Shown here in pieces: positions 5,979-22,053 of a DNA stretch of 64,000 nt; within the stretch, counting starts at the first letter, position 1; each line of letters opens with the position of its first letter. The stretch is taken from positions 107,395 through 171,394 of IMG/VR virus record IMGVR_UViG_3300015263_000944; one strand, given 5' to 3'. This DNA is from a virus. A program made the translations under genes and the position numbers. The notes under the pieces are model-generated. The model did no database searches. It was given only the letters and a program-made list of their open reading frames with translations, and was not told the origin of the DNA.

Positions 5979-6051
5979 AGCGGCTGATGGGGTTCGAACC
6001 CACGACAACCACGTTGGCAACGTGGTGCTCTACCAACTGAGCTACAGCCGC
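5979..6051 (-). tRNA. tRNA-Gly(GCC)
   Basis: Hand-folded cloverleaf; anticodon loop TTGCCAA; T-loop GGTTCGAACCC. Confidence 0.8.
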
Positions 6052-6061
6052 CTAACGACGA

Positions 6062-6259
6062 TCAATCGTCGTCGTCTTCATCCTCGATGCCGGGCGTCGA
6101 GGGTGGGGGCCATCCACGGACGGCCACACTTATATAGTAAAAGATCGTCTTAATTAGCGTGAAAACGCCGCCCAGCAGAATGAGCAGAAAGAGGGCTTGC
6201 CCAAAAGGATGATCCCAACTGCGTACCACGTCCCAGAAATTTCGCCAGAAGCCTTCCAT
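6062..6259 (-). CDS. Small membrane protein
   Basis: Hydrophobic core with an acidic C-terminus. Confidence 0.35.
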   Translation of the reverse strand: MEGFWRNFWDVVRSWDHPFGQALFLLILLGGVFTLIKTIFYYISVAVRGWPPPSTPGIEDEDDDD

Positions 6260-6273
6260 GGCTTTCTCCTTTT

Positions 6274-6531
6274 CTAACCTTTCCAGATGTCTTGGTTATT
6301 CCAACTTCCGTGTTTTCGCCTCCAAGAACGCTGGCGAGCACGCCATTCCTTGAAGGTCTTGTCGGCGGATTCTTTGCAGATGTCTTCCTCGTGCAAGTGC
6401 TCTTTCTTTCCGAGGAAGATGGCGATGATCAGGTCTCCCCACCTCCACCATACCGGAATACCGACATAGAAGAGTATGAAGAAGATGATGTAGACGGCTG
6501 CAACGGCTTCGTTGGCTGGTTCGTGGTTCAT
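6274..6531 (-). CDS. Small membrane protein
   Basis: Hydrophobic N-terminus. Confidence 0.35.
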   Translation of the reverse strand: MNHEPANEAVAAVYIIFFILFYVGIPVWWRWGDLIIAIFLGKKEHLHEEDICKESADKTFKEWRARQRSWRRKHGSWNNQDIWKG

Positions 6532-7622
6532 ACAGGCCCTCCACTGCTGGTCCCAGCCGCAGCCAGCATAGGCTCTTCGGTTTCGCCGTCCTCGTCGATG
6601 ATGGTGATCGGCGGGCAGTTGTTCTCGTAGAACACCTTCACGAATTCAATGCCCTTGTGGACACCAGCGGCACCCCAACAGACAGGCATTGCGATTCCCT
6701 TGCCACACATGATGAAAGGCGGGGAAATGCCGACAAAGAAATCATAAGCGAACCCACCCAAGCGTTCCATGCCAGCCTCAAGAGTCGGTGACGCTTTCTT
6801 GAGGCCGATGCCAACTGAGATCGCAGTGGCACTACCAACAACGGCGATGCCTGTGTAGTAGCCGATATCGGCCCACGGAAGCCAACAGAGAAATTCCCAT
6901 GTTGCGCCGGGGAACCAACAGAGAAATTCCCAGACTGGGGGAGCCGCTTGAACAAGGCCATATCCTGCCGCCGCAAGAGCACCAACGCCACACACTCGCA
7001 AGCCGTTCTTGACGACGACTTCGCCGATGTGAACCAGCTTGACCATGAACGCTTCTCGCTGGGCACGGCGTCGGGCGGCGATCTCTTCCTGCTCGTCTAG
7101 TTTCTTGCAGATGCGGTCAAACCGTTCCTCACACTCCTCACGAGTCAGGTACTTGAAATTCAACTCTCGCTGGGCATACATCCAGAAGTATTCGAAGTCC
7201 CTTCTCAATGTGGGAGAAGTCCGCAAGAGATTGACAAGCTCGTCAATCTCCAATGATCGAAGTTCCGCTTCTGTGAGTGGCCGAGGTTCACCCTTGAAAC
7301 TGATCGAGTTGATGCCTCGGGCGATGTATTTCGCTGCCGCAATGCCGCCGCCAACAGTAGCAACTGTGGCCCGTACCAGCACGATGAGCGGCAGGCAGAC
7401 AGCGATGAGATTGGTGAGATGGAAGAGAGGGCAGTAGTGCGTGTAGAGGTATCGTGGAAGGCTGCTGTCTGAGACCTTCTTCACATCCTTCTCATAAAAG
7501 CACCAGTGCAACAGGCGATATCGCCAATGGTCGAGCGTGAGCTTGCGTTCGCCTTTGATGGCATCCAGAAGAGACATGGCTCCCTCCGTGATAGATGGTT
7601 CGTTTCCTCCATTCGATACCAC
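6528..7622 (-). CDS. Multi-pass membrane protein, hypothetical
   Basis: 364 aa. Contains an internal tandem nucleotide repeat (6896-6945) encoding PVWEFLCW x2. Confidence 0.45.
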   Translation of the reverse strand: MVSNGGNEPSITEGAMSLLDAIKGERKLTLDHWRYRLLHWCFYEKDVKKVSDSSLPRYLYTHYCPLFHLTNLIAVCLPLIVLVRATVATVGGGIAAAKYIARGINSISFKGEPRPLTEAELRSLEIDELVNLLRTSPTLRRDFEYFWMYAQRELNFKYLTREECEERFDRICKKLDEQEEIAARRRAQREAFMVKLVHIGEVVVKNGLRVCGVGALAAAGYGLVQAAPPVWEFLCWFPGATWEFLCWLPWADIGYYTGIAVVGSATAISVGIGLKKASPTLEAGMERLGGFAYDFFVGISPPFIMCGKGIAMPVCWGAAGVHKGIEFVKVFYENNCPPITIIDEDGETEEPMLAAAGTSSGGPV

Positions 7623-7765
7623 TTCAGGATAGCTGATCTGAGATGAGATGGCAAGCTCTGTTCAACGCAAGAAGTGAACAGCAAAGTAAATGGTGCCCAC
7701 AATCAAAAGGATCTGCACCAGAAGGAGCAGACAAGATGGCACCCAATCAAAGTCATTATTCATAG

Positions 7766-7838
7766 AGCGAACGACGGGACTTGAACCCGCAACATCCAGC
7801 TTGGGAAGCTAGTGCTCTACCAATTGAGCTACGTTCGC
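7766..7838 (-). tRNA. tRNA-Gly(CCC)
   Basis: Cloverleaf; anticodon loop TTCCCAA. Confidence 0.7.
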
Positions 7839-8010
7839 ATTGGGGGCTCTGGCATCGTACAGAGCCCCTCGGTGATTGCCCACCCTCCCTCATCCAAGAG
7901 GTTGCATGACCGTCGTTACACCATCGTCGAACCGGCATACATTGTCGGGTGCCCAGCCGCAAGACTGATGATCACCGTGTTCTCACAGTGTCGCTCCGTC
8001 ATCGTCTTGC

Positions 8011-8163
8011 TTATCTATTGGCACCAATAACCGAAATTGTGATTGTCACGATGATCCCGGTGAAAAAGATGGCGAGCCAGAATGCCCATCGGGGAGGTGG
8101 TTCGACAGCTTCGTTCTTTCGGGCAAAAAGATGCCACAGAACAAACAGAAAGATATTATTCAT
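8011..8163 (-). CDS. Small membrane protein (~50 aa)
   Basis: Hand-found ORF MNNIFLFVLWHLF... Confidence 0.25.
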   Translation of the reverse strand: MNNIFLFVLWHLFARKNEAVEPPPRWAFWLAIFFTGIIVTITISVIGANR

Positions 8164-8458
8164 GTTCGTCAGGGAACAACTTCTTGAGGATCAGGCCACC
8201 GGCTCCCAACCATGCCGCCGTCCATGCGGCCAGCCCCAGAAGTTGCAATGTGATCTTAAGCTTCTTGTTCATTCTCCTCCTTCGGAGTCATCGACTTCTT
8301 CTTTTTCTTGAGCTTTTTCCATAAAGCTTTGATTTCCTTGTAAGCATCGGCGGCAGAAATGGGATTCCCCGCATTGGACTCCAGTGCAACTATGATGCCC
8401 ACCTTGTGTGCAAAAAGCTGGAGATCGTCTTCAAATTCTTCATCCATCTGCCCTCCTA

Positions 8459-8545
8459 AAAGCAGCCGTGGCTGGAGTCGAACCAGCATCCCTTGGTTGA
8501 GTGATGAGTGCAACTATGAAGAGGCCAGTCTTTCAGACCTCACCT
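8459..8545 (-). ncRNA. tRNA-like fragment (T-arm plus acceptor 3' strand), 5' partner unclear
   Basis: GCTGGTTCGACTCCAGC followed by CACGGCTG. No convincing 5' acceptor strand within 90 nt. Confidence 0.2.
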
Positions 8546-8590
8546 CACCCCGGTATCCCCAAAGTGTTCCGACAAGCACGGCTACATTGA

Positions 8591-8938
8591 TCAACTCTTA
8601 AAGTAGTCGATCAGTCCTACGACGATTGCTATGACAAGCAACACGCCGAAAATGTTCGCTGCGACGATTGCCGCAAATCCCATCCCCATCTCTTTCAAGC
8701 GGGACGAGCCTTCTTTCGCCACCTCTTCGACGACTCGCTCACGAGCATGGCCTGCCCGCTCGCTCACTGTCTTAGATGTGTCCGATGCCACCTCCACACT
8801 CTCCAGCGTGAAAGAGGCAACTCGAAGCATGGTTCCTCCTGTCCTGAAGAACGTAAGGAACCACTTCCAGATTCCATAGCCACCACAAACAAGAAGACCA
8901 ATCAACCAGACCCACCAGTATGTAGCAATGAAAGTCAT
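8591..8938 (-). CDS. Membrane protein, hypothetical
   Basis: Two TM segments. Confidence 0.4.
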   Translation of the reverse strand: MTFIATYWWVWLIGLLVCGGYGIWKWFLTFFRTGGTMLRVASFTLESVEVASDTSKTVSERAGHARERVVEEVAKEGSSRLKEMGMGFAAIVAANIFGVLLVIAIVVGLIDYFKS

Positions 8939-8949
8939 CGGACTTCTCC

Positions 8950-9288
8950 TTAGAACGGATGATACACTTCTTTTGTCGCTATCCGAGTTGAGGCGATCTC
9001 ATCAGCTTCCGCCAACAACGCCGTTGCAATTTTTGCACTGGCCGTCTTGCCAGCCTCATCTCTGAGAGCAACTACCTGTTGATGCCATTGTTCCTTTCGA
9101 TGGGGGCAAGAGAAGTCATCGTAGGGCGACTTTCCGCCACACATTGCCTGTGCAAAGCCCCGTGGCCCATTGCAACCACGACGTTCATCCATCTGGTCCC
9201 CACAAACTCCACAGAAGACAGCTTCGCCTTCTGGCACCTCGCCCGGATCAGGCGTGTATCGAGATTGTGTTTTGGATTCGAGTTTCAT
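8950..9288 (-). CDS. Hypothetical Cys-rich protein
   Basis: 112 aa, CGVCGD...C.....C. Confidence 0.4.
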   Translation of the reverse strand: MKLESKTQSRYTPDPGEVPEGEAVFCGVCGDQMDERRGCNGPRGFAQAMCGGKSPYDDFSCPHRKEQWHQQVVALRDEAGKTASAKIATALLAEADEIASTRIATKEVYHPF

Positions 9289-9569
9289 TTGCAGCCCCCC
9301 AAAAACGTCTTGATGCGATGTTGAATTGGCCGTTCAACAGCATCGTAAGCTCGCAACGCACCTTGAATCAAATCCTCTGATGGATCTTCGCCGAACTCCT
9401 TTCGGTACTCCTCAATGAAGCGTTGGCGAAGTTCACTGGCACGCAGCTTTTCCTTCTGCATGACACGGATTTGTTTGTAGGCCCAAACACCAACTTGTCC
9501 CGCCAAGTAGATGTTCGACACTGTGTTGAATGTGCGAAAGACGAACGTAAAAGGTGTAAGAATTCCCAT
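9285..9569 (-). CDS. Hypothetical protein
   Basis: 94 aa; overlapping start/stop in the operon. Confidence 0.4.
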   Translation of the reverse strand: MGILTPFTFVFRTFNTVSNIYLAGQVGVWAYKQIRVMQKEKLRASELRQRFIEEYRKEFGEDPSEDLIQGALRAYDAVERPIQHRIKTFLGGCK

Positions 9570-9626
9570 GTCAAGTACCTCCTGTACTTTAAGATAGGAA
9601 AAACTTAGCAGATTTCACGCATTCGC

Positions 9627-10007
9627 TCAAGATGGATTACGGCAGGACGGACACAAGGCCCTGATCCAGCGGCCTTCCAATGTCACCCCTTCCTTGGTTC
9701 CGCAATTCTCACAGATGTCCTGAGATGCCGCTTCGGCGGCGTCAATCAGTTTGTTGGTCTCTTCATTGCTGCCGCTGGAATAAATGCGGAGAGTTCCGAA
9801 CTTCTCTTTGATTTGCTCAAATTTGAAGTCAGGCCCAGCGACCTTAGAGAGATCTTCGCAGAGCGTGCGAAGGAGATCGTGCCACCCCTCTCCAATGGCG
9901 ATTCCGCCATGAGCCGCAGACATACATGTCTTGGTGGGGTCGCCGTTGAGATCGACGAAGAATTGAGGGAAGTCCTCTTGAAATTTCTGTTGAAGTTCCT
10001 TCTTCAT
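9627..10007 (-). CDS. Hypothetical protein
   Basis: Start moved to MKKELQQ to avoid the tRNA at 10024. Confidence 0.4.
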   Translation of the reverse strand: MKKELQQKFQEDFPQFFVDLNGDPTKTCMSAAHGGIAIGEGWHDLLRTLCEDLSKVAGPDFKFEQIKEKFGTLRIYSSGSNEETNKLIDAAEAASQDICENCGTKEGVTLEGRWIRALCPSCRNPS

Positions 10008-10023
10008 GGTGCCATCCTTGAAA

Positions 10024-10113
10024 GTCGGAGCGGAGGGAATCGAACCCACATCTCGGATTTATCAGATCCTAAGCCGGGTATAAGCCGGGTGCATTTCCAT
10101 TATGCTACGCTCC
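10024..10113 (-). tRNA. tRNA-Ile(GAT)-like with a 19-nt insertion between D-arm and anticodon stem
   Basis: Canonical acceptor, D-arm, anticodon arm (GGAT CTGATAA ATCC) and T-arm. The extra CCCGGCTTATACCCGGCTT carries a 9-nt direct repeat. Confidence 0.5.
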
Positions 10114-10164
10114 GAAGAGTCGGTGCGTAGCTGCATATGAGAAAATGTGTCATGGTTACTCCAG

Positions 10165-10237
10165 TGCCCCCAGAAGGACTCGAACCTTCAACCGCCTGAT
10201 TAAGAGTCAGAAGCTCTGCCAATTGAGCTATGGAGGC
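10165..10237 (-). tRNA. tRNA-Lys(CTT)
   Basis: Canonical cloverleaf; loop CTCTTAA. Confidence 0.8.
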
Positions 10238-10256
10238 TTATTGTCAATTGAATCGC

Positions 10257-10739
10257 CTACGGAAGATACATCGGGAAGACTTTCTTCCCTTCTTTGATTT
10301 CGTCGAGGAACCCCTTGTAAAGATGCAGCGTGGACAACTCATCGTCCTTTAGTTCTATGACGTGCAGCTTGTTGTACTCTTCTTCGGCATCGAAGATGAC
10401 CGGCCCGAGATACTCCTTGTGCCTCAAAGGGTTGTCGGCCAGAGGATGGCCTTCAACCGTCTGATCGTCATGTAGTTGCTCTTCACAAAAGGCTGGATCA
10501 GTCCTCATGGACTCCATCTTGGCTTCTGCTTCTTCTTTGGAAGCAAAACGCCCAACCTCGATTCCACACTTTGATTTGATCTCGCTGCCCTTGATCACGA
10601 AGTCCAGTCGATGCCATTGCATCCCTCGGACGACCCAGTAGGTGGGCTTCGAATCCAAAGGCGGAAGGTTGTCCCAGTCCACATCTGGGAATTCTTCCTC
10701 GATCATCTTGAGGAAGCTTTCGTTTGTCCAACCAGCCAT
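10257..10739 (-). CDS. Hypothetical protein
   Basis: 160-aa acidic ORF. Confidence 0.45.
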   Translation of the reverse strand: MAGWTNESFLKMIEEEFPDVDWDNLPPLDSKPTYWVVRGMQWHRLDFVIKGSEIKSKCGIEVGRFASKEEAEAKMESMRTDPAFCEEQLHDDQTVEGHPLADNPLRHKEYLGPVIFDAEEEYNKLHVIELKDDELSTLHLYKGFLDEIKEGKKVFPMYLP

Positions 10740-10740
10740 A

Positions 10741-10964
10741 TCACCCTTGCTCAGCTATGACACGCCCAGATTGGTCCTTCACCTGAACGATGGTCTTGAT
10801 TTCATTTCCGGGGCCTTCGAGAAGTCGGAATCCTCCGTCTTCTCGCAACGCATCCTCGATGATCTGCTCCGCATTGAAAAAGTGGGCAGCAGTTGTGGTA
10901 ATGACTCCCTTTGCGACCAACGCATCACGAATCGCTGTCGCCTTGTTCTTGAGAACACTCATCC
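10741..10964 (-). CDS. Small hypothetical protein
   Basis: Internal start MSVLKNK of ORF 10741..11220. Confidence 0.3.
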
Positions 10965-16952: not shown

Positions 16953-16989
16953 GTAACCTGCCTTCGATCACAACATCATGTTGTGATAG

Positions 16990-17061
16990 TACACCCGGAG
17001 GGATTCGAACCCCCGACCGACTGCTTAGAAGGCAGTTGCTCTTCCACTGAGCTACGAGTGC
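16990..17061 (-). tRNA. tRNA-Arg(TCT)
   Basis: Loop CTTCTAA. Confidence 0.75.
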
Positions 17062-17068
17062 ATGTCAG

Positions 17069-17147
17069 AGGCCGCAGGCGGATTCGAACCACTTGACGCC
17101 AGATTTGCAGTCTGGTGCTCCACCACGAAGCTTTCGTCTCCACGGCC
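17069..17147 (-). tRNA. tRNA-Cys(GCA)-like with an expanded, palindromic D-region
   Basis: Anticodon arm CCAGA CTGCAAA TCTGG; about 7 extra nt around the D-arm (ACGAAAGCTTCGT). Confidence 0.5.
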
Positions 17148-17221
17148 AGTGAGTTGTTGGCGTCATGATTTACGACCTTTGCTCTTATCACTGGGACGGT
17201 CAAGCAGGGACCAACAACAAG

Positions 17222-17294
17222 CGAGCCATACGGGAGTCGAACCCGCAACCTCTTCCGTGACAGGGAAGTGAGCTACCATCTGCTCCTATGGCCC
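17222..17294 (-). tRNA. tRNA-Asp(GTC)
   Basis: Loop CTGTCAC. Confidence 0.75.
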
Positions 17295-17401
17295 TTAAAA
17301 ATCAACCGGTTTACTATCGAACGTCCCAGCTTAAGTGTACAATTCCACTGGGCACCTTCAACAAGGTTAGGCTTGTACTTTGCCACACGAGCCGGTTGAA
17401 G

Positions 17402-17474
17402 TGGAAGCGGTGGGAATCGAACCCACATGGTCCCGGTTAAGAGCCGGGTGCAATTACCTTGTCTGCCACACTTC
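17402..17474 (-). tRNA. tRNA-Lys(CTT)
   Basis: Loop CTCTTAA. Confidence 0.75.
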
Positions 17475-17666
17475 CATTTCCTACACCACCTTCAGCTTTC
17501 TTTCCTTGGGCTTCTGTGGTTCGTGCGTCTGGCGGATCGTATTGATCCCTACATCCTTGTATGCCAGATGCGTCGGTTCGCCCTTCTGGGCACGTTTCGC
17601 TGCTGCTTCATTCAAAGCGATAATCGTTTCCAAACACCACATTCTCAAGTTCCTTCTCTTCTGAGG

Positions 17667-17957
17667 TTAGTCATCCCAGACAGCTTCGAGGGACCATCCT
17701 ATTCGAAACCATACAACTCTGGGCTTTTCCCGGTAGTCGAGGACAGCGACCTTGTAGATTCGCTGGCCGTCGTTTTTGTACCAGAAAGGTCCGTATGAAA
17801 AAACTGGTTCTTCGATACTGACCACTTGGCAACGATTGTCTTCACACCATTCTTTGATCTCTTCACGATTGGATTGCCCTGTCCACGTCGCCAAGGCGAT
17901 GCAGAAGGCCAACACCAGCAAAAATCCGATTGCTGTAAGTATCCAATTCTTTTCCAT
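17667..17957 (-). CDS. Small membrane protein
   Basis: Start moved to MEKNWIL to clear tRNA-Asp. Confidence 0.35.
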   Translation of the reverse strand: MEKNWILTAIGFLLVLAFCIALATWTGQSNREEIKEWCEDNRCQVVSIEEPVFSYGPFWYKNDGQRIYKVAVLDYREKPRVVWFRIGWSLEAVWDD

Positions 17958-17979
17958 GATGAGATCCTTCACATCAGAG

Positions 17980-18053
17980 CGAGGATGACGGGACTCGAAC
18001 CCGCAACCACCGGCTCGACAGGCCGGTACTCTAACCAATTGAGCTACATCCCC
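17980..18053 (-). tRNA. tRNA-Asp(GTC)
   Basis: Loop CTGTCGA. Confidence 0.7.
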
Positions 18054-18088
18054 TTTTATATCATCCCAACCTTTCAGTCAAGATGAAG

Positions 18089-18159
18089 CTGCCCAACTTG
18101 GATTCGAACCAAGGCTAACTGAGTCAGAGTCAGTCGTGCTACCGCTACACTATCGGGCA
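18089..18159 (-). tRNA. tRNA-Gln(CTG)
   Basis: Loop CTCTGAC; U1-A72. Confidence 0.7.
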
Positions 18160-18180
18160 ATGTGTCGTGTATTCTTTAAG

Positions 18181-18251
18181 CTGCCCGGCAAGGGTTCGAA
18201 CCTCGGCCAACTGATTCAAAGTCAGTTATGCTACCACTACACCACCGGGCA
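18181..18251 (-). tRNA. tRNA-Gln(TTG)
   Basis: Loop CTTTGAA. Confidence 0.7.
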
Positions 18252-18267
18252 AAAAAATTGGGAGGAG

Positions 18268-18340
18268 TGCCCCCTGTAGGATTCGAACCCACACCTATCT
18301 GATTAAAAGTCAGAAATGCTCCCATTAACACCAAGGAGGC
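18268..18340 (-). tRNA. tRNA-Lys(TTT)
   Basis: Loop CTTTTAA. Confidence 0.75.
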
Positions 18341-18344
18341 AGAG

Positions 18345-18417
18345 TGGGACCGCTCGGAATCGAACCGAGAACCTACCGGTTAAAAGCCGGTTGCTCTGCC
18401 TGTTGAGCTACGATCCC
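18345..18417 (-). tRNA. tRNA-Lys(TTT)
   Basis: Loop CTTTTAA. Confidence 0.75.
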
Positions 18418-18489
18418 ATGTTTATGAGATCGTGCGTTTCAATCGTTGAGTGTTCATGGAAAAATCTCCTTCTATGGTTTGTGTATGAG

Positions 18490-18562
18490 AGACTCGGGTG
18501 GGATTTGAACCCACGACATGCTGGTTAACAGCCAGCCGCTCTGGCCTCTGAGCTACCGAGTC
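18490..18562 (-). tRNA. tRNA-Asn(GTT)
   Basis: Loop CTGTTAA. Confidence 0.8.
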
Positions 18563-18569
18563 AGCCAAG

Positions 18570-18641
18570 CTCCGGGAACAGGTCTCGAACCTATAATAAC
18601 TGGTTAACAGCCAGTCGTGATACCAATTTCACCATCCCGGA
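18570..18641 (-). tRNA. tRNA-Asn(GTT)
   Basis: Loop CTGTTAA. Confidence 0.7.
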
Positions 18642-18648
18642 ATGTAAG

Positions 18649-18719
18649 AGCGGGTGAAGGGAATCGAACCCTCATAGCCAGCTTGGAAGGCTGGAGCTTT
18701 GCCATTAAGCTACACCCGC
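18649..18719 (-). tRNA. tRNA-Gly(TCC)
   Basis: Loop CTTCCAA. Confidence 0.7.
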
Positions 18720-18728
18720 ATGTTTAAG

Positions 18729-18800
18729 AGCCGGTAGAGGGAATCGAACCCCCGACAAGTTGTTTACAAAACAACCACTCTGCCACTGAGTTACACCGGC
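18729..18800 (-). tRNA. tRNA-Thr(TGT)
   Basis: Loop TTTGTAA. Confidence 0.75.
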
Positions 18801-18900
18801 GTTCTGTTGAAGGCTGCGTTACGGCCACGGCTAGGTCCACACCACTGAGGGCTCGCCAAGTTCGTCCTCCGACTTTGGTTCATGCCGCTGGTTCAACAAG

Positions 18901-18973
18901 TATCCCCGAGAAGATTCGAACTTCTTCTTCCACCTTCGCAGGGTGACGTGCTTATCCATCACACTCCGGGGAT
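18901..18973 (-). tRNA. tRNA-Arg(GCG)?
   Basis: Loop CTGCGAA. An unusual anticodon for bacteria. Confidence 0.5.
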
Positions 18974-19062
18974 ATTACTGCGGATCGTGAATCGGATACT
19001 ATCCGAAACGACTAAGGCTAATTCCGCAAAGCCCCAACACTTTAGTTCTTGTGTTGTTTCAG

Positions 19063-19133
19063 CAGGAGCGGGAGGACTCGAACCCCCACCAACGGTTTTG
19101 GAGACCGACATGCTACCATTACACCACGCACCT
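19063..19133 (-). tRNA. tRNA-Trp(CCA)
   Basis: Loop CTCCAAA. Confidence 0.7.
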
Positions 19134-19138
19134 GTGTT

Positions 19139-19274
19139 CAACATGTCCACGTCGTGGACATGTTGGTGAAACGTGTCGAAGTTTTTGCATTTTTTCGACA
19201 CGTTTCTGGAACGTGTCGCAATTTTTGCATTTTTGCGACACGTTTTTGTGACATGTCGTTATCGGCGACATGTC
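19139..19274. promoter_or_regulatory. Array of four palindromes sharing half-site AC(A/G)TGTCG
   Basis: Palindromes at 19139-19165, 19168-19206, 19211-19243 and 19250-19274. Confidence 0.5.
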
Positions 19275-19278
19275 AAAG

Positions 19279-19409
19279 TCGGGGAGGTAGGATTCGAACC
19301 TACAATCTTCAGTTCCAAAATACTGATGCTTGTTTGTAAGTTTCGCATGTGGGGGACGCCGAGGCGTCCAAGTTTGAGAAACTGGTGTTAACCATTTAGC
19401 TTCTCCCCG
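19279..19409 (-). tRNA. tRNA-like gene interrupted by ~57-nt conserved hairpin element (copy E); anticodon loop 8 nt (ATTTTGGA)
   Basis: Perfectly pairing acceptor CGGGGAG/CTCCCCG; T-arm GTAGGTTCGAATCCTAC; insert between D-arm and anticodon stem. Confidence 0.45.
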
Positions 19410-19411
19410 AG

Positions 19412-19483
19412 TAGCGACGGCTGGACTCGAACCAGCACTAACCGGCTTATGAAACCAGTGCTTTACCTTTAAGCTACGTCGCC
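19412..19483 (-). tRNA. tRNA-Met(CAT) elongator-type
   Basis: Loop TTCATAA. Confidence 0.7.
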
Positions 19484-19486
19484 ATA

Positions 19487-19777
19487 TCAAACGATGAACT
19501 TCCCTTGCAGGATGAACATCTCAAGCTGGTCGATTTCCTTCTTCGCTTTGACCAGATCTTTCGTTCGCAATCCGTAAGGACAGTCTTCGACGAAGTACGC
19601 CATTGCTGCTGCCTTTGCATCGTGAACCGAATACTGATCGAGCGGATCGACATACCTTTTCGACAAGACAACCATCTGAACTGACCAGATTGCCCGACTC
19701 CGAATTTGCTCTTCGGTGATCGGTTCTTTAGGTTCAGGCGGCTTCCGTCTAAAGAGACGAACCAGCCAGCCAAACAT
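19487..19777 (-). CDS. Hypothetical protein
   Basis: 96 aa. Confidence 0.4.
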   Translation of the reverse strand: MFGWLVRLFRRKPPEPKEPITEEQIRSRAIWSVQMVVLSKRYVDPLDQYSVHDAKAAAMAYFVEDCPYGLRTKDLVKAKKEIDQLEMFILQGKFIV

Positions 19778-19827
19778 TTTGCCTCCGAGGACTTGCTATA
19801 CACATAGCTACTCCTCATAAGGCAAGG

Positions 19828-19901
19828 TCGGGAAGACAGGATTCGAACCTGCGACCCCCTGCTCCCAAAGCAGGTGCTCTACCAAGCTGAGCTACTTCCC
19901 G
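19828..19901 (-). tRNA. tRNA-Pro(TGG)
   Basis: Loop TTTGGGA. Confidence 0.8.
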
Positions 19902-20007
19902 ATTGTAACCATCCAAGTCGATGCAGCAGGTGTCCCCTGCGCCCATGGCAGGGGACAAACAAATCCGAAGTTTTGTTTGTAAGCTCCATCAGTAGGAGAT
20001 GGTCAAG

Positions 20008-20079
20008 TCCTCCCGGCTGGAATCGAACCAGCGTGTACGGTTCCACAAACCGCCGCTCTCGCCACTGAGCTACAGAAGG
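20008..20079 (-). tRNA. tRNA-His(GTG), no encoded G-1
   Basis: Loop TTGTGGA; a copy of the conserved element plus a GC hairpin lies in the 3' trailer. Confidence 0.6.
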
Positions 20080-20087
20080 ATAAAAAG

Positions 20088-20211
20088 TGGAGGTGGTGGG
20101 ATTCGAACCCACATTGCTTTCGCCAAAAGAAAGTTTTTTACCGTTTGTATGTTCCGCAGTTGGGGGATGGCGAACCATCCAAGTTTGAGAAACAGTGTTT
20201 TTTACACCCCC
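20088..20211 (-). tRNA. tRNA-like gene interrupted by conserved element (copy F); anticodon arm CTTTC TTTTGGC GAAAG
   Basis: Acceptor GGGGGTG/CACCTCC; degenerate D-arm. Confidence 0.4.
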
Positions 20212-20237
20212 GGTTGTTGAATGACACGAACCATAAA

Positions 20238-20258
20238 GAATGGTTCGCAGCATTCGAG
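20238..20258. other. Perfect 8-bp hairpin CGAACCAT-AAAG-AATGGTTCG next to tRNA-Pro
   Basis: Seen directly; possible processing or terminator hairpin. Confidence 0.4.
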
Positions 20259-20332
20259 TCAGGATGAAAGGATTTGAACCTTCGACCTTCTGGCCCCCAG
20301 CCAGACGCTCTCCCAAACTGAGCTACATCCTG
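20259..20332 (-). tRNA. tRNA-Pro(GGG)
   Basis: Loop CTGGGGG. Confidence 0.75.
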
Positions 20333-20519
20333 TTGTGATTGTGCTGGTGCATACAGCCAAGCGGGCTTCAAGGTTAGATCAGGGCAATGTTACATGCCAC
20401 ACCCTCTGGACCACACAATCATTGAACGATTTTCTCGCCCACCAGATATCACACCGAGCCGAATAGGCGTTGCTCATGACGGCTTGTTGGCCGTAACAGA
20501 TTTCTCTGTTGTGTGAAAG

Positions 20520-20664
20520 AGCCCCCGACTGGATTCGAACCAGTAACCTCTCGCTTAGAAGGCGAAATTGTTTGTAAGCTTCACATGTAGGGGACAAGCC
20601 GAAGCCCGTCCAAGTTTGTCAAGCGATTTAACAGTAGTGCTCTAGCCAATTGAGCTACAGGGGC
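20520..20664 (-). tRNA. tRNA-Arg(TCT) interrupted by ~71-nt conserved element (copy A) between D-arm and anticodon stem
   Basis: 5' exon GCCCCTGTAGCTCAATTGGCTAGAGCA. 3' part TTCGC CTTCTAA GCGAG plus T-arm plus CGGGGGC. Confidence 0.5.
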
Positions 20665-20700
20665 CTGTTGTTTTGCCCGTTTTCAAACGGAGCCGAAAAG

Positions 20701-20841
20701 AGCCCTCGACCGGATTCGAACCGATACTACCCCCTTGGAATGGGATTGTTTGTAAGCTTCACATGTAGGGGACAAGCCGAAGCCCGTCCAAGTTTGCCAA
20801 GCGAGTAAACGTAAGGTGTGCTACCATTGCACTACGAGGGC
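20701..20841 (-). tRNA. tRNA-Gly(TCC) interrupted by ~70-nt conserved element (copy B)
   Basis: Acceptor GCCCTCG/CGAGGGC; anticodon arm ATCCC ATTCCAA GGGGG. Confidence 0.5.
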
Positions 20842-20866
20842 AACTCGTAAGTCCCCGAAGGGACAG

Positions 20867-20937
20867 TGACCCGTGAGAGAATCGAACTCTCGTTCTCTGT
20901 CTGAAAAACAGTAATCCTACCACTAGACGAACGGGCC
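20867..20937 (-). tRNA. tRNA-Glu(TTC)
   Basis: Loop TTTTCAG. Confidence 0.7.
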
Positions 20938-21025
20938 GTAAAACTGAGATCGCAGAGTTTCAGTCAACGATCTCGGGACTCCTTGTACACATGGTACATG
21001 AGCTAATTGCCCCGCAAGGGGCGAG

Positions 21026-21098
21026 GGTGCCAGACCAGAATCGAACAGGCTCTTCCTCGGTCACAGCGAGGCGTGCATAACCATTACACTTCCGGCAC
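21026..21098 (-). tRNA. tRNA-His(GTG) with encoded G-1/C73
   Basis: Loop CTGTGAC; extra 5' G. Confidence 0.7.
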
Positions 21099-21106
21099 CA
21101 TATAAG

Positions 21107-21181
21107 GGTGTGCGAAGGGAATTGAACCCTCACCTTCAGCTTCACAAACTGACGTGCAGAAACCACTACACTACGCACACC
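21107..21181 (-). tRNA. tRNA-His(GTG) with encoded G-1/C73
   Basis: Loop TTGTGAA. Confidence 0.7.
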
Positions 21182-21188
21182 ATCTCGT

Positions 21189-21246
21189 AGTTTCACTGAA
21201 ACTGGCAGTTTCACTACGGAGTGAAACACCATGTTTCAGTGAAACA
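21189..21246. promoter_or_regulatory. Three palindromes with half-site GTTTCA(C)
   Basis: Palindromes at 21189-21203, 21208-21227 and 21232-21246. Confidence 0.45.
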
Positions 21247-21252
21247 TTGGAG

Positions 21253-21323
21253 TGACCCCACGGAGATTCGAACTCCGGTCTTCTGCCTGAGAAGCAGATG
21301 TCCTCCCACTAGACGATGGGGCC
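21253..21323 (-). tRNA. tRNA-Glu(CTC)
   Basis: Loop TTCTCAG. Confidence 0.7.
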
Positions 21324-21443
21324 AGTTGGCGATTCAATTGTCAAGGATCAAATTTCGGAGTGCATCCCACCCAAGTTCCTCACTCCCCGGCATTAGGCAC
21401 ATAGTCCCTCACCGGATACCAATCCAAATTTTGGACTGGCAAG

Positions 21444-21514
21444 AGCGACCGAAGGGAATCGAACCCTCGTCACCTGCATGGCAAGCAGGCGCATTACCAC
21501 TATGCTACGGTCGC
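21444..21514 (-). tRNA. tRNA-Gly(GCC)
   Basis: Loop TTGCCAT. Confidence 0.75.
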
Positions 21515-21521
21515 ATTTCAG

Positions 21522-21593
21522 TGACCCCACGGAGAGTCGAACTCCGGTTCTCAGATCGAAAATCTGATGTCCTAACCACTAGACGATGGGGCC
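21522..21593 (-). tRNA. tRNA-Glu(TTC)
   Basis: Loop TTTTCGA. Confidence 0.75.
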
Positions 21594-21644
21594 GTCTTTT
21601 CTTTCTCTCTTTCGTTTGGCCTTTCCTAGCGGGTGTTAGTCCAC

Positions 21645-21694
21645 AAAAAAAAGGCTCGCTCAGGCGAATTTCTCCACCTGAGCGAGCCTTTTAT
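21645..21694. terminator. Bidirectional rho-independent terminator
   Basis: A8, then GGCTCGCTCAGG...CCTGAGCGAGCC, then TTTTAT. Confidence 0.7.
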
Positions 21695-21980
21695 GGATTT
21701 GAGCGGCTCTTGAACTCAGGTGGCTTTGGGCCGTCCTGAGTTCTTGTGTGAACCAATCAGAACGGCGTGAGGGTTGGCATACCCTCGGCGGCTGCTGGAT
21801 TATCATGTCCTTGACGGACTACGATAATGGCGCAGCACGGGCATGTGGTCTGTTCGACCTTATGCCATCTACGTTCTGTGGTTCGTTTGCTCAACATTGT
21901 TTCTTGTCCTTAGTCCTTTGAGGTTCGAGGCTTTCGCAAATCCCCCCGGATCGCAAATGCCAAAAACCCTCATTCGGAAG

Positions 21981-22053
21981 TGGCAGGTGAAGGATTCGAA
22001 CCTCCGTCCTCCGGGTTATGAGCCCGACGAGCTAACCACTGCTCCAACCTGCG
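21981..22053 (-). tRNA. Initiator-like tRNA-Met(CAT)
   Basis: Loop CTCATAA; three G-C pairs at the base of the anticodon stem; unpaired 1-72. Confidence 0.65.

What the first reader, a model, noticed from the sequence alone, without database searches (positions are those of the whole stretch)
5979..22053. Very large tRNA array (~50 genes) with a skewed repertoire
About 40 tRNA genes lie in 16 kb, plus about 10 more in two distal clusters, all on the minus strand. They include an initiator-like tRNA-Met (C1·C72 mismatch, GGG/CCC anticodon-stem base), three tRNA-His (two with encoded G-1/C73), three Ile(GAT), four Lys and many duplicated isoacceptors. By hand I found no type-II tRNA (Leu/Ser/Tyr) and no tRNA-Phe. 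Leu and Ser anticodons appear only in atypical type-I scaffolds: AAG loops at 11706 and 40942, GGA at 11847 and TGA at 42326. Together with IF-1, PTH2, CspA and NDK, this points to extensive takeover of host translation.
Basis: seen in the sequence. Interest (0 to 1): 0.6.

Follow-up and report, generated by a model that had tools for sequence, protein, structure and literature searches.

The report
Phage tRNA array plus Y-like RNAs
A very large bacteriophage carries about 40 ordinary tRNA genes in a row, and at least a dozen of the 'odd' tRNA-like units among and beside them carry a conserved RNA handle that sits next to a Ro60 protein gene, so they are probably Y-RNA-type partners of that protein rather than unusual decoders.

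Summary
ARAGORN finds 47 tRNA genes and Rfam finds 49, all on the minus strand, with 44 in 5978-22053. About 40 are canonical type-I tRNAs for 15 amino acids plus a bacterial-type initiator. Neither scanner finds a canonical Leu, Ser, Tyr, Phe or Cys gene. None encodes CCA.

The window covers under a third of a phage genome of at least 221 kb. Related phages keep canonical type-II Leu/Ser/Tyr and Phe genes in separate clusters, so the "skew" may be a window effect.

The main new result concerns the atypical units. Twelve copies of a covarying two-helix RNA module occur in the window:
- seven are capped hairpins inserted in or replacing the D arm of tRNA-like genes;
- five are split into leader and trailer halves around a tRNA-like body or two small hairpins, which gives Y-RNA topology.

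The module clusters directly upstream of a gene whose predicted fold is Ro60. The same arrangement occurs in 9 related huge-phage contigs and 29 bacterial loci, some of which give sub-threshold YrlA matches. The "Leu AAG" at 40942 and "Ser TGA" at 42326 belong to this class. Best reading: a known kind of phage tRNA array interleaved with a new architectural variant of YrlA-type Y RNAs.

The parts
5978..22053 (-). Main tRNA array. It holds 44 ARAGORN calls, about 40 of them canonical type-I tRNAs: Gly x4, Lys x4, Thr x4, Pro x3, Val x3, Arg x3, Glu x3, His x3, Ile x2, Ala x2(+1), Asp x2, Gln x2, Asn x2, Met x2 including the initiator, and Trp x1. Small ORFs and module-bearing tRNA-likes are interspersed.
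   Evidence: ARAGORN. Rfam RF00005 at 45-72 bits. 46/47 have C74, 40/47 have U75 and none encodes CCA. Only one strong minus-strand terminator lies in the array, at 21649-21692.
21980..22053 (-). Bacterial-type initiator tRNA-Met, with a C1xC72 mismatch and three G:C pairs at the base of the anticodon stem.
   Evidence: Sequence and structure. Rfam 62.1 bits.
10024..10114 (-). 91-nt tRNA with two anticodon-like hairpins: loop CTTATAC (UAU) followed by loop CTGATAA (GAU). Both scanners treat the first as the anticodon arm and the second as a long variable arm.
   Evidence: Infernal alignment, 53.4 bits.
11704..11777 (-). Atypical type-I unit with anticodon AAG. It has A33 instead of U33 and a C2xU71 mismatch. 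No module is present.
   Evidence: Rfam 47.5 bits. Flanks.
11846..11917 (-). Atypical type-I unit with anticodon GGA. Only 4 acceptor pairs form, and Rfam matches model positions 4-67 only.
15244..15317 (-). Ala(CGC)-like unit with G3:U70 and A73 but an aberrant D arm. ARAGORN calls it; Rfam does not at gathering score.
17069..17147 (-). tRNA-Cys-like unit (loop CTGCAAA, U73) with an extra helix and hairpin in the D region. Both scanners miss it.
   Evidence: T-arm scan. Fold.
19279..19409 (-). Module tRNA-like A. It has a Pro-like acceptor (C1:G72, A73), a 59-nt capped module in the D loop, and an 8-nt anticodon loop ATTTTGGA.
   Evidence: Rfam tRNA 47.3 bits with a 59-nt insert. R1 model 69.9 bits at 19332-19387.
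19906..20005 (-). Mini Y-like RNA 1. The leader half starts right after N73-C of the GUG tRNA at 20007-20079. Two small hairpins follow, then the trailer half. The terminal helix is ACCATC/GATGGT.
   Evidence: MFE fold. Partner search.
20088..20211 (-). Module tRNA-like B. The acceptor has G3:U70 and A73 (Ala/tmRNA-like). The module replaces the D arm. The anticodon loop is TTTTGGC.
   Evidence: Rfam tmRNA end-match 27.5 bits. R1 61.7 bits. 7/7 acceptor pairs.
20519..20664 (-). Module tRNA-like C. It has a full D arm, then the module between positions 26 and 27. The anticodon loop is CTTCTAA (UCU) and the discriminator is U73.
   Evidence: ARAGORN intron mode. R1 62.3 bits.
20700..20841 (-). 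Module tRNA-like D. Its module is nearly identical to that of C (one difference in 60 nt, in P1) and sits at the same position. The anticodon region can be read as UCC or CCA. The discriminator is U73.
   Evidence: R1 64.1 bits.
34147..34237 (-). tRNA-like F. The acceptor and D arm are normal. The anticodon arm is replaced by a long stem capped with UUCG. The T loop is non-canonical.
   Evidence: Rfam 29.9 bits. Fold.
34322..34428 (-). tRNA-like M. Two hairpins (CCC-UUCG-GGG and a GCAA-capped stem) are inserted in the D loop. The anticodon stem is capped by UCCG, so there is no anticodon.
34436..34530 (-). Mini Y-like RNA 2, lying between E and M. The terminal helix is TTGACCGTCC/GGACGGTCAA.
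34532..34654 (-). tRNA-like E. It has the same D-loop insert as M. The anticodon arm is extended and capped by UUCG.
   Evidence: Rfam 42.7 bits..
34659..34766 (-). tRNA-like L. It has a related D-loop insert. The anticodon arm is TTATCC-TTCG-GGATAA, with no anticodon.
39269..40837 (-). Ro60-like protein of 522 aa: a helical-repeat ring plus a C-terminal vWA domain.
   Evidence: AlphaFold2 model with pLDDT 84.3. The top 13 Foldseek PDB hits are all Ro60, with E from 8.7e-12 and TM 0.53-0.67. PDB profile search finds only TROVE proteins, E 0.0026. Homologues hit Pfam vWA_Ro60. The Pfam TROVE model itself is silent.
40911..41042 (-). Y-like RNA enclosing a complete tRNA-like body (40940-41014, loop TTAAGGA = AAG, A73). 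Leader TTTCCCACTC pairs with trailer GAGTGGGAAA. A hairpin and U-run terminator follow, and the Ro60-like gene starts 103 nt after the tRNA-like body.
   Evidence: tRNA body scores 68.3 bits.
41045..41173 (-). Module tRNA-like K. The module replaces the D arm. The anticodon loop is GTTTTCG and the discriminator is A73.
   Evidence: R1 62.8 bits. 7/7 acceptor pairs. Fold.
41717..41839 (-). Y-like RNA enclosing a tRNA-like body (41744-41814, anticodon TCC). Leader TGTCCGCCC pairs with trailer GGGCGGACA.
   Evidence: Rfam 49.7 bits for the body.
41842..41976 (-). Module tRNA-like J. The module lies in the D region. The anticodon loop is CTCATAA (CAU) and the discriminator is A73.
   Evidence: R1 62.8 bits..
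42231..42321 (-). Mini Y-like RNA 3. It starts after N73-C of unit I and ends in a U run.
42326..42453 (-). Module tRNA-like I, a paralogue of A. The module lies in the D loop. The loop is CTTGAAA (UGA) and the discriminator is G73.
   Evidence: Rfam partial hit 30.3 bits. R1 53.5 bits. Orthologues with the same acceptor have loop CTGAAAA/CTGAATA (GAA).
50374..50691 (-). IF-1-like gene (S1-fold eIF-1a/IF-1 family).
   Evidence: tblastn E 8e-16. Pfam PF01176 on the JGI gene call.
3155..3547 (-). PTH2-type peptidyl-tRNA hydrolase gene.
   Evidence: tblastn E 8e-22. Pfam PF01981.
1585..1983 (-). Nucleoside diphosphate kinase gene.
   Evidence: tblastn E 2e-27. Pfam PF00334.
41992..42186 (-). CspA-like cold-shock protein gene, embedded in the Y-like RNA cluster between units I and J. 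The start coordinate is approximate.
   Evidence: tblastn E 1e-10 at 42004-42165.

Best explanation
The region is a genuine, co-oriented tRNA gene array of a huge bacteriophage. The genome is at least 221 kb and the host is probably a Planctomycetota bacterium.

About 40 genes are ordinary type-I tRNAs. They lack encoded CCA and share an N73-C-U 3' boundary. Inferred steps: they are probably cut from long transcripts by host RNase P and a 3' endonuclease, then completed by a CCA-adding enzyme, and they supplement the host tRNA pool.

Interleaved with them and beside them is a second class of RNA genes. These are tRNA-like bodies fused to a conserved two-helix module:
P1 - RACUUG - P2 ... P2' - CC-YAC-N - P1' - YWUACAAAC.

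The module takes two forms:
- Capped. P2 is closed by a UUCG, CUCG or similar tetraloop in the window copies and by GNRA in relatives, and the module is inserted in or replaces the D arm (7 genes).
- Split. The 3' half serves as a leader that begins right after the preceding tRNA's N73-C. The 5' half serves as a trailer. The RNA ends pair into a stem-internal loop-stem that encloses either a whole tRNA-like body (2 genes) or two small hairpins (3 genes).

The split form has the topology of Y RNAs. The module is most likely the binding site for the phage's Ro60 protein, encoded at 39269-40837. These RNAs are then YrlA-type Y RNAs whose tRNA-like part acts as the effector or tether domain rather than as a decoder.

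Shown: the genes, the module, its covariation, the leader-trailer pairing, the Ro60 fold, and the conserved synteny in phages and bacteria.
Inferred: Ro60 binding, processing, and the non-decoding role.

The apparent lack of Leu, Ser, Tyr, Phe and Cys tRNAs is most likely because those genes lie elsewhere in the genome.
For: tRNA array. Two independent scanners agree.

The module is real and structured.
- A strict pattern matches 5 times against 0 expected.
- In a 17-sequence alignment, 85.7% of cells are paired, against at most 48.7% when partners are slid. 14 of 16 pairs show double changes. G:U pairs are present.
- P2 is capped by stable tetraloops: UUCG or CUCG in most window copies and GNRA in relatives.

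Model search.
- The R1 model finds 7 strong copies in the window.
- It finds strong copies (E < 1e-4) in 9 related phage contigs. In those contigs every copy lies on the gene strand, 0.1-4.5 kb upstream of the Ro60-like gene.
- It finds hits in 29 of 80 bacterial or MAG loci that carry the same protein family, all on the gene strand and most just upstream of the gene.
- In 4 of the 5 such loci tested, including the isolate Gemmata sp. IIL30, the region just upstream of the gene also gives Rfam YrlA hits of 32-38 bits, E 1e-4 to 4e-3.

Architecture. The module RNAs have 7/7 acceptor stems and canonical T arms.

Split form.
- Minimum-free-energy folds pair leader with trailer in all 5 window cases.
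- A partner helix of at least 7 bp exists at 46% of TACAAAC sites, against 2.9% after shuffling.

Ro60 identity. Foldseek's top 13 hits are all Ro60, with E down to 8.7e-12.

Precedent.
- Y RNAs that mimic tRNA are encoded next to Ro60 in more than 250 bacteria and phages (PMC4201824).
- Phage phiLo has two Y-like RNAs upstream of its Ro60 gene (PMC12135203).
- The 3'-strand motif AACUUG is shared with the Rfam YrlA consensus (alignment).

Non-decoding role.
- Sixteen embedded tRNA-likes share one scaffold, and most of them also share the acceptor, the discriminator (usually A73) and a CC tail. Yet they carry 12 different anticodons.
- Orthologous capped-module RNAs differ in anticodon: TGA versus GAA, and TCT versus ATT.

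Window effect. Relatives have canonical type-II Leu, Ser and Tyr genes and Phe genes. The source contigs total at least 221 kb.
Against: - No Rfam Y_RNA or YrlA hit occurs in the window itself, even at E <= 1 in the two distal clusters. The only hits are two weak ones (21-23 bits) in the main array, and at least one of them is explained by adjacent tRNAs.
- The published Rsr-binding motif GNCGAAN0-1G is not present as such. Only GUCC...YGAAG fragments occur.
- Several module RNAs keep textbook anticodon loops (Y32-U33-NNN-R37). Several have discriminators that match their anticodons: Pro-like A, Gly-like D, Ser-like I, Lys-like K. This would also fit real, chargeable tRNAs.
- Four capped copies lie 19 kb from the Ro60 gene, inside the main array.
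- There are no expression, processing or binding data.
- Whether the rest of the genome carries type-II tRNAs could not be checked.
Confidence: 0.7

Rival explanations
1. The module is an intervening sequence. It is cut out of the D-loop or 26/27 site, and out of inter-tRNA spacers, by a phage or host endonuclease. The halves are then ligated or stay annealed. This would yield functional decoding tRNAs: Ser-UGA, Arg-UCU, Gly-UCC, Met-CAU, Lys-UUU, Pro-UGG. On this view the array covers more codons than the scanners report.
For: In A and I, removing the 59-nt insert restores a canonical D arm. C and D have a full D arm plus a normal anticodon arm. Anticodon loops are canonical, and discriminators match in A, D, I and K. 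The same sequence also occupies inter-tRNA spacers, as archaeal bulge-helix-bulge motifs do in introns and in the leaders of split tRNAs.
Against: In B, K and many relatives the module sits 1-7 nt after the acceptor strand. No D arm is left to restore. No endonuclease-ligase tRNA splicing pathway is known in bacteria. The insert is too short for a group I intron, and no intron or ribozyme family matches. The strongly conserved internal loop and the tight linkage to a Ro60 gene are not explained. Anticodons are not conserved between orthologues.
Confidence: 0.12
2. The module is a cis-acting processing element for the tRNA array. It would be either a small self-cleaving ribozyme, comparable to the HDV-like theta ribozymes downstream of phage tRNAs, or a hairpin recognised by an endoribonuclease. 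Its job would be to define tRNA 3' and 5' ends.
For: The leader halves begin exactly at N73-C of an upstream tRNA. UACAAAC abuts or overlaps the 5' end of the next tRNA-like body. Theta ribozymes set a precedent for tRNA-linked ribozymes in phages with CCA-less tRNAs (PMC10879173).
Against: Only about 5 of some 50 junctions carry it. The fold is a simple nested stem-loop-stem without the HDV double pseudoknot. No ribozyme family scores even at E <= 1, apart from one 14.6-bit hit on the opposite strand. Capped copies sit inside tRNA bodies, where cleavage would destroy the RNA. Synteny with Ro60 in bacteria that lack tRNA arrays is unexplained.
Confidence: 0.07
3. The phage truly lacks type-II tRNAs. 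It decodes Leu and Ser through unconventional short-arm tRNAs as part of a takeover of translation.
For: No canonical Leu, Ser or Tyr gene occurs in about 75 kb around the array. Leu, Ser, Tyr, Phe and Cys make up 23.6% of codons. More distant relatives (Tepidisphaerales and Phycisphaerales MAG contigs) have near-complete arrays in which tRNA-Leu is 73-77 nt long with a Leu-type 3-bp D stem and A73. Armless tRNA-Leu therefore does exist in this wider group.
Against: In the window only AAG, GGA and UGA anticodons are offered for 12 Leu and Ser codons. Two of the four units are degenerate. The other two belong to scaffold families with non-conserved anticodons. Relatives keep type-II Ser and Tyr, and often Leu. 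Two thirds of the genome is unseen.
Confidence: 0.1
4. The module is a selfish miniature DNA repeat. An example would be an IS200/IS605-type hairpin element that targets TTAC. It would have spread through the tRNA region and disrupted genes, so the module-bearing units would be pseudogenes.
For: There are many copies, hairpins and a conserved TTAC just before the 3' boundary. Copies C and D are nearly identical, differing at one position in P1.
Against: All copies share the orientation of transcription. Helices are kept by compensatory changes, including G:U pairs that would be A:C on the other strand. Each split copy has its own specific 9-12-bp leader-trailer complement. Position and synteny are conserved across phages whose Ro60-like proteins are only 50-60% identical, and in bacterial loci. 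No transposase is nearby.
Confidence: 0.04

Closest known systems
YrlA-type bacterial and phage Y RNAs with Rsr/Ro60 (Chen et al. 2014, PMC4201824; Rfam RF02553)
   Same: The RNAs are encoded in clusters next to a Ro60 gene, on the same strand. The RNA ends pair into a stem-internal loop-stem. The rest of the RNA mimics tRNA. The 3' strand carries AACUUG, as in the YrlA consensus. Bacterial loci that carry this Ro60 subfamily give both R1-module hits and sub-threshold YrlA hits.
   Different: The tRNA-like part is in native gene order, with its own acceptor ends and a real anticodon arm. In YrlA it is the circularly permuted T-acceptor-D arrangement. A second, capped form of the module is inserted into the D region of otherwise tRNA-shaped genes. 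The GNCGAAN0-1G motif is absent. Rfam YrlA does not match the window copies. The protein partner is a divergent Ro60 that the Pfam TROVE model does not detect.
Thermus phage phiLo Ro60 with Yrl1/Yrl2 (PMC12135203)
   Same: It is a phage-encoded Ro60 with Y-like RNA genes immediately upstream. The solved phiLo Ro60 structure is among the fold matches.
   Different: phiLo has two plain stem-bulge-stem RNAs with a CGAA motif. The window has 12 module copies in three architectures, most of them fused to tRNA-like bodies, and they sit inside a tRNA array of 40-plus genes.
tRNA arrays of huge and jumbo phages (up to about 67 tRNAs per genome in Al-Shayeb et al. 2020, cited from my own knowledge; jumbo-phage review PMC7824862)
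   Same: There are tens of co-oriented tRNA genes interspersed with small ORFs and accompanied by translation-related genes. The review notes that a small subset of jumbo phages carry a TROVE protein with a tRNA-like partner.
   Different: Nothing I found describes tRNA-shaped genes that carry a Ro60-type module, or the N73-C-U boundary.
HDV-like theta ribozymes next to phage tRNAs (PMC10879173)
   Same: It is a structured RNA of about 50-60 nt that abuts the 3' end of CCA-less phage tRNAs.
   Different: The fold is different: nested helices with no double pseudoknot. There is no ribozyme family match. The module also occurs inside tRNA bodies and is linked to a Ro60 gene.
Archaeal split or permuted tRNAs and bulge-helix-bulge introns (from my own knowledge)
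   Same: One motif is found both inside tRNA genes, at D-loop and 26/27 positions, and in leader-trailer pairs.
   Different: The context here is bacterial: a 1:72-mismatched initiator, Shine-Dalgarno sites and bacterial IF-1. There is no bulge-helix-bulge geometry. In many copies, removing the insert would not restore a D arm.

Membership tests
Canonical bacterial-type tRNA gene (about 40 units) | Cloverleaf with a 7-bp acceptor, a 7-nt anticodon loop with U33, and a T loop; score above the Rfam RF00005 gathering threshold. | tested here: met
   ARAGORN scores 105-126 and Rfam 45-72 bits.
Type-II tRNA (Leu/Ser/Tyr) | Long variable arm combined with a Leu, Ser or Tyr anticodon. | tested here: not met
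   None is found at default or relaxed thresholds. The only long-arm tRNA (10024-10114) has an Ile anticodon.
Y RNA / YrlA | Encoded adjacent to a Ro60 (Rsr) gene. | tested here: met
   Five units lie within 1.6 kb upstream of 39269-40837. The same arrangement occurs in 9 phage contigs and 29 bacterial loci.
Y RNA / YrlA | The 5' and 3' ends pair into a long stem interrupted by an internal loop or bulge. | tested here: met
   Met for the 5 split copies. The 7 capped copies present the same two helices and internal loop as a closed hairpin.
Y RNA / YrlA | A tRNA-like domain. | tested here: met
   7/7 acceptor stems, canonical T arms and Rfam tRNA hits. The order is native rather than permuted.
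Y RNA / YrlA | Match to the Rfam YrlA or Y_RNA covariance models. | tested here: not met
   No hit occurs in the window clusters at E <= 1. Sub-threshold YrlA hits (32-38 bits, gathering score 69) occur only in bacterial loci that share the module.
Y RNA / YrlA | Conserved Ro-binding sequence (GGUCCGA / GNCGAAN0-1G). | tested here: inconclusive
   The leader strand reads GUCC-CC-YAC-N-YGAAG and the other strand reads RACUUG-GAC. This resembles the known motif but is not identical to it.
Y RNA / YrlA | Physical binding to Ro60. | not testable with these tools
   Needs EMSA, RIP or structural work.
Ro60 / TROVE protein (39269-40837) | Ring of helical repeats plus a C-terminal vWA domain (Ro60 fold). 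| tested here: met
   Foldseek's top 13 hits are all Ro60, aligned over the full length. Model pLDDT is 84.3.
Ro60 / TROVE protein (39269-40837) | Match to the Pfam TROVE domain model. | tested here: not met
   No TROVE hit occurs even at E <= 1. Only vWA families match, and vWA_Ro60 matches in homologues. The PDB profile search hits only TROVE proteins, at E 0.0026.
HDV-like / theta ribozyme | Nested double pseudoknot with a catalytic C, and a match to HDV-like models. | tested here: not met
   The covariation-supported structure is a plain nested stem-loop-stem. No ribozyme family is found on the coding strand.
Group I or bulge-helix-bulge tRNA intron | Removal restores a canonical tRNA; intron-specific core or bulge-helix-bulge geometry. 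| tested here: inconclusive
   Restoration is possible for A, I, C and D, but not for B, K or many relatives, where the D arm is absent. No group I match. Splicing itself is not testable here.

The most novel reading that the evidence does not exclude
The module-bearing RNAs are functional tRNA mimics, possibly chargeable, that are physically tethered to a phage Ro60. The resulting RNP would couple Ro60 to the tRNA pool. It could act as a decoy or sensor for host anticodon nucleases, or as a platform that protects or repairs tRNAs during infection. The anticodon of one conserved scaffold would be swapped rapidly between phages (12 anticodons in 16 orthologues) as part of an arms race with host tRNA-targeting defences.
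Probability: 0.2. Interest if true: 0.85.

Novelty: new variant of a known kind. Interest (0 to 1): 0.6.

Why it matters
Large tRNA arrays in huge phages are already known, so the array itself adds little.

What is new is that a sizeable fraction of the "odd tRNAs" in such an array are not tRNAs in the usual sense. They are Ro60-linked Y-type RNAs built on complete tRNA bodies.

Consequences:
1. Automated tRNA counts and codon-coverage arguments for these phages are partly wrong. Scanners both miss these units and mislabel them, for example as Leu-AAG, Gly-UCC or Ser-UGA.
2. It defines a candidate RNA partner for a large, divergent Ro60 subfamily. That subfamily has more than 2,000 detected homologues in huge phages, Planctomycetota, Chloroflexota and Cyanobacteria, and standard TROVE models miss it.
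3. It offers a tractable system for asking what the tRNA-like half of a Y RNA is for. Here that half retains an anticodon arm whose triplet varies between related phages.

Tried and rejected
1. Loose module pattern in IMG/VR. All 120 returned loci were single chance matches with no T arm nearby. Discarded.

2. Strict module pattern in GTDB genomes. No exact match. The protein-guided search plus the covariance model was needed instead.

3. Sigma-70 promoter reading of TTGACC-N19-TACAAA. Rejected because the spacing changes by 12-16 nt between forms, and promoter-like sites are not enriched.

4. HDV/theta, hammerhead, twister, pistol and preQ1 readings. No Rfam support at E <= 1. The covarying structure has no pseudoknot.

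5. Archaeal-virus or bulge-helix-bulge intron idea. Rejected because of the bacterial-type initiator, the Shine-Dalgarno sites, IF-1 and the NAD-dependent ligase.

6. Vault-like RNP idea (MVP-like protein at 30608-33346, plus a TROVE protein, plus the tRNA-likes at 34 kb). Three MVP relatives have no tRNA-like genes upstream, and the D-loop insert of E/L/M is absent from 15 related loci. Dropped.

7. Reaching the rest of the genome. Look-ups are limited to window proteins. Flanks from -5.3 kb to +6.1 kb contain no further tRNAs. The NDK look-up failed because the start codon differed.

8. Near-identical phages in INPHARED. None found; only tRNA-sized matches.

Full report

Yes. ARAGORN reports 47 tRNA genes in the window. 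All are on the minus strand and 44 lie in 5978-22053. Rfam's tRNA model gives 49 hits above its gathering score, also all on the minus strand. The window has about 50% G+C, a steadily negative GC skew, and mostly minus-strand ORFs.

- The initiator-like tRNA-Met at 21980-22053 has C1 opposite C72 and three G:C pairs at the base of the anticodon stem.
- There are four Lys genes.
- There are three GUG tRNAs. Two have the extra G-1:C73 pair. The third (20007-20079) has A73 and no G-1.

Only two Ile(GAU) genes are called. ARAGORN and Infernal both read that gene as anticodon UAU with a 20-nt variable arm, but the loop of that arm, CUGAUAA, is a perfect Ile(GAU) anticodon loop.

No canonical type-II Leu, Ser or Tyr gene is found, nor any Phe or Cys gene. 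Relaxed ARAGORN thresholds add nothing convincing. Those five amino acids account for 23.6% of 10,454 codons in 28 window ORFs.

IF-1, PTH2, CspA and NDK are confirmed.

**2. What genome is this?**

No catalogued phage is close. Exact-protein look-ups place the window on two contigs of JGI metagenome 3300022562. One is 100,747 bp and covers window positions up to about 10573. The other is 120,310 bp and starts at about 11185. The genome is therefore at least 221 kb.

The flanks I could read, 5.3 kb to the left and 6.1 kb to the right, hold no further tRNAs.

Homologues of the window's Ro60-like protein lie on contigs of up to 693 kb. They also occur on many MAG contigs labelled Pirellulaceae, Gemmataceae or Phycisphaerae. 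That points to a huge phage of Planctomycetota. The host assignment is an inference.

**3. The array proper**

About 40 genes are canonical type-I tRNAs covering 15 amino acids plus the initiator. None encodes CCA. 46 of 47 have C at position 74 and 40 of 47 have U at position 75. This suggests a shared 3'-processing boundary and dependence on a CCA-adding enzyme.

Only one strong minus-strand terminator lies in the array, at 21649-21692. Promoter-like sites are not enriched. This is compatible with long co-transcripts but does not prove them.

The type is known: huge phages with tens of tRNAs.

**4. Is the repertoire really skewed?**

It cannot be said from this window. Fifteen related IMG/VR loci were fetched through the Ro60-like protein. 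Several carry canonical type-II genes, and these are grouped by amino acid:
- L128 has four Leu genes of 83-86 nt and five Ser genes of 88-94 nt.
- L130 has Leu, Tyr and Phe.
- L132 has Leu and Ser.

The window shows the same grouping habit for Ala, Val, Lys, Asn, Gln, Glu and His. The missing families may therefore simply lie in the unseen two thirds of the genome.

**5. The unexpected part: a conserved RNA module**

Running ARAGORN with introns allowed, Rfam with E-values, and a scan for orphan T arms exposed many tRNA-shaped units that standard scans miss or mislabel.

Seven of them (A 19279-19409, B 20088-20211, C 20519-20664, D 20700-20841, K 41045-41173, J 41842-41976, I 42326-42453) contain the same element of about 56-60 nt:
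P1 - N - CA/RACUUG - P2 hairpin - CC-YAC-N - P1' - YWUACAAAC.

A strict pattern matches five times against zero expected.

Seventeen copies from the window and three related phages align well. The two helices are supported by covariation:
- 85.7% of cells are paired, against 32-49% when partners are slid.
- 14 of 16 pairs show changes on both sides.
- The covariation score is 0.454, against at most 0.16 in the slid controls.
- No shuffle out of 500 reached the observed value.
- G:U pairs occur.
- P2 is closed by stable tetraloops: UUCG or CUCG in most window copies and GNRA in relatives.

This is therefore an RNA-level structure on the transcribed strand.

The host RNAs have perfect 7-bp acceptor stems, canonical T arms and usually a 7-nt anticodon loop. 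The module sits in the D loop (A, I), between positions 26 and 27 (C, D), or replaces the D arm outright (B, K and many relatives).

**6. A split, Y-RNA-like form**

The 3' half of the module (P2'-CC-YAC-P1'-UACAAAC) also occurs alone, starting exactly after N73-C of a preceding tRNA. Its missing 5' half (P1-RACUUG-P2) lies 26-105 nt downstream. Each pair has its own specific 7-12-bp complement.

The enclosed segment is one of two kinds:
- a complete tRNA-like body. These are the "Leu AAG" at 40940-41014 and the "Gly UCC" at 41744-41814, whose acceptor stems start inside ACAAAC;
- two small hairpins, at 19906-20005, 34436-34530 and 42231-42321.

Minimum-free-energy folds pair leader with trailer in all five cases. 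A partner helix of at least 7 bp exists for 46% of TACAAAC sites, against 2.9% after shuffling.

Ends paired into a stem-internal loop-stem is the hallmark topology of Y RNAs.

**7. Link to Ro60**

The 522-aa ORF at 39269-40837 has no Pfam TROVE hit. Other evidence identifies it:
- A profile search of PDB sequences finds only TROVE proteins.
- Close homologues hit Pfam vWA_Ro60.
- An AlphaFold2 model with pLDDT 84.3 matches Ro60 structures in its top 13 Foldseek hits. These are human, Xenopus, Deinococcus Rsr and Thermus phage phiLo Ro60, aligned over the full length, with E from 8.7e-12 and TM 0.53-0.67.

Five module RNAs lie within 1.6 kb upstream of this gene. The nearest one ends in a terminator just before the gene's ribosome-binding site.

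The covariance model R1 finds strong copies in nine related phage contigs. There, every copy is on the gene strand and 0.1-4.5 kb upstream of the Ro60-like gene.

R1 also finds hits in 29 of 80 bacterial or MAG loci that carry the same protein family. All are on the gene strand, and most lie just upstream of the gene.

Five of those loci were scanned with Rfam. In four of them, including the isolate genome Gemmata sp. IIL30, the region just upstream of the gene contains circularly permuted tRNA mimics that Rfam's YrlA model detects below threshold (32-38 bits). The YrlA consensus shares the 3'-strand AACUUG with the module.

Y RNAs next to Ro60 are established in bacteria and phages (PMC4201824). 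A phage example has been characterised biochemically (PMC12135203). Jumbo-phage TROVE proteins with a tRNA-like partner have been noted (PMC7824862).

I therefore read the module as the Ro60-binding stem and these RNAs as a new architectural variant of YrlA-type Y RNAs. Binding itself is inferred, not shown.

**8. Are the module RNAs decoders?**

Probably not, or not primarily. Sixteen embedded tRNA-likes from the window and relatives share one scaffold: a D arm UAGCUCAAUGGUAGAGC throughout and, in most of them, an acceptor AAACAWU...UGUUU, an A73 discriminator and a CC tail. Yet they carry 12 different anticodons: AAG, UCC, ACG, UGU, AUU, UGA, UAG, UCA, CAU, UUC, UAU and CCA.

Capped-module orthologues with identical acceptors also differ. 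Window unit I has CUUGAAA (UGA), whereas L122 and L121 have CUGAAAA and CUGAAUA (GAA). L122 has UCU where L121 has AUU.

Against this, several units keep textbook loops and discriminators that match their anticodons. A chargeable or decoy role therefore stays open; see the novel case.

Unit 11704-11777 has A33 and a 2:71 mismatch. Unit 11846-11917 has only four acceptor pairs.

**9. Rivals**

Four alternatives were weighed and judged less likely, for the reasons given in their entries:
- an intron-like element;
- a processing signal or ribozyme;
- a selfish DNA repeat;
- a true biological absence of type-II tRNAs.

**10. Verdict**

The finding is real. Its core, a large phage tRNA array, is a known kind of feature. 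Its claimed skew is unproven. Its "atypical scaffolds" lead to something more interesting: a family of Ro60-linked, tRNA-bodied Y-like RNAs. This family is not in Rfam and was not described in the literature I could search.

Noticed in passing
window, all 47 ARAGORN tRNAs: Position 74 is C in 46/47 and position 75 is U in 40/47. No gene encodes CCA. The N73-C-U(U) boundary is also seen in related phages (tails ACTT, TCTT). This suggests a shared 3'-processing signal.
   Followed up: partly
window 10024-10114 (-): tRNA with two consecutive anticodon-like hairpins whose loops both spell isoleucine anticodons (UAU, then GAU). It is unclear which hairpin is the anticodon arm in the folded molecule.
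   Followed up: partly
window 34147-34766 (-): A second family of tRNA-shaped RNAs (L, E, M, F). They carry two extra hairpins (CCC-UUCG-GGG and a GCAA-capped stem) in the D loop. The anticodon stem is capped by a tetraloop, so there is no anticodon. The insert motif was not found in 15 related loci, and the cluster is not linked to the MVP-like gene in relatives.
   Followed up: partly
window 20088-20211 (-) and 2888-2975 (-): Two tRNA-like units with a G3:U70 pair and A73, the alanine identity set also used by tmRNA. One carries the Ro60-type module and a UUG-like anticodon loop. The other is an 80-nt acceptor/T-arm RNA near the NDK gene.
   Followed up: no
window 17069-17147, 14113-14235, 8455-8592 (-): Orphan T-arm/acceptor units that both scanners miss. 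The first is a Cys-like tRNA (GCA, U73) with an extra helix in the D region. The second is a unit of about 117 nt that ends in ACCA. The third is a unit of about 130 nt with G73.
   Followed up: partly
window 26581-29944 and 35464-37207 (-): Ubiquitin-like conjugation set: a ThiF-type E1 (35464-36114), a Prok-E2_D-like protein (28589-29944) and two JAB-like proteins (26581-27546, 36668-37207). In several relatives, small ORFs ending ...RPEAVFG lie upstream of the Ro60-like gene.
   Followed up: no
window 30608-33346 (-): 912-aa protein with a major-vault-protein shoulder domain (Pfam E 1.7e-18). Relatives exist in IMG/VR contigs of 17-254 kb.
   Followed up: partly
L150, L155, L158, L176, L194 (MAG contigs labelled Tepidisphaerales, Phycisphaerales or Pirellulales): tRNA arrays of 10-29 genes, three of them near-complete, lie next to the Ro60-like gene. 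In them tRNA-Leu is only 73-77 nt long, with no long variable arm, but keeps a Leu-type 3-bp D stem and A73. Where Ser and Tyr genes are present in these arrays they remain type II.
   Followed up: partly
L121 7396-7482 and 8011-8100; L122 2025-2108, 4189-4275 and 5101-5194; L128 6537-6620; L130 8095-8178: His, Asn, Lys, Cys and Arg tRNAs in related phages carry an extra stem-loop in the variable region, giving lengths of 84-94 nt. This is unusual for those amino acids.
   Followed up: no
window 41992-42186 (-): The CspA-like RNA-chaperone gene sits inside the Y-like RNA cluster, between units I and J.
   Followed up: no
window 10573-11185: The window bridges the ends of two separate JGI contigs from the same sample. 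The metagenome assembly apparently broke inside the tRNA region.
   Followed up: yes
window 11778-11800 and 11680-11703 (-): The degenerate AAG unit at 11704-11777 is flanked by a direct repeat of about 20 nt (TGGGGCGAAYAAACCG...).
   Followed up: no
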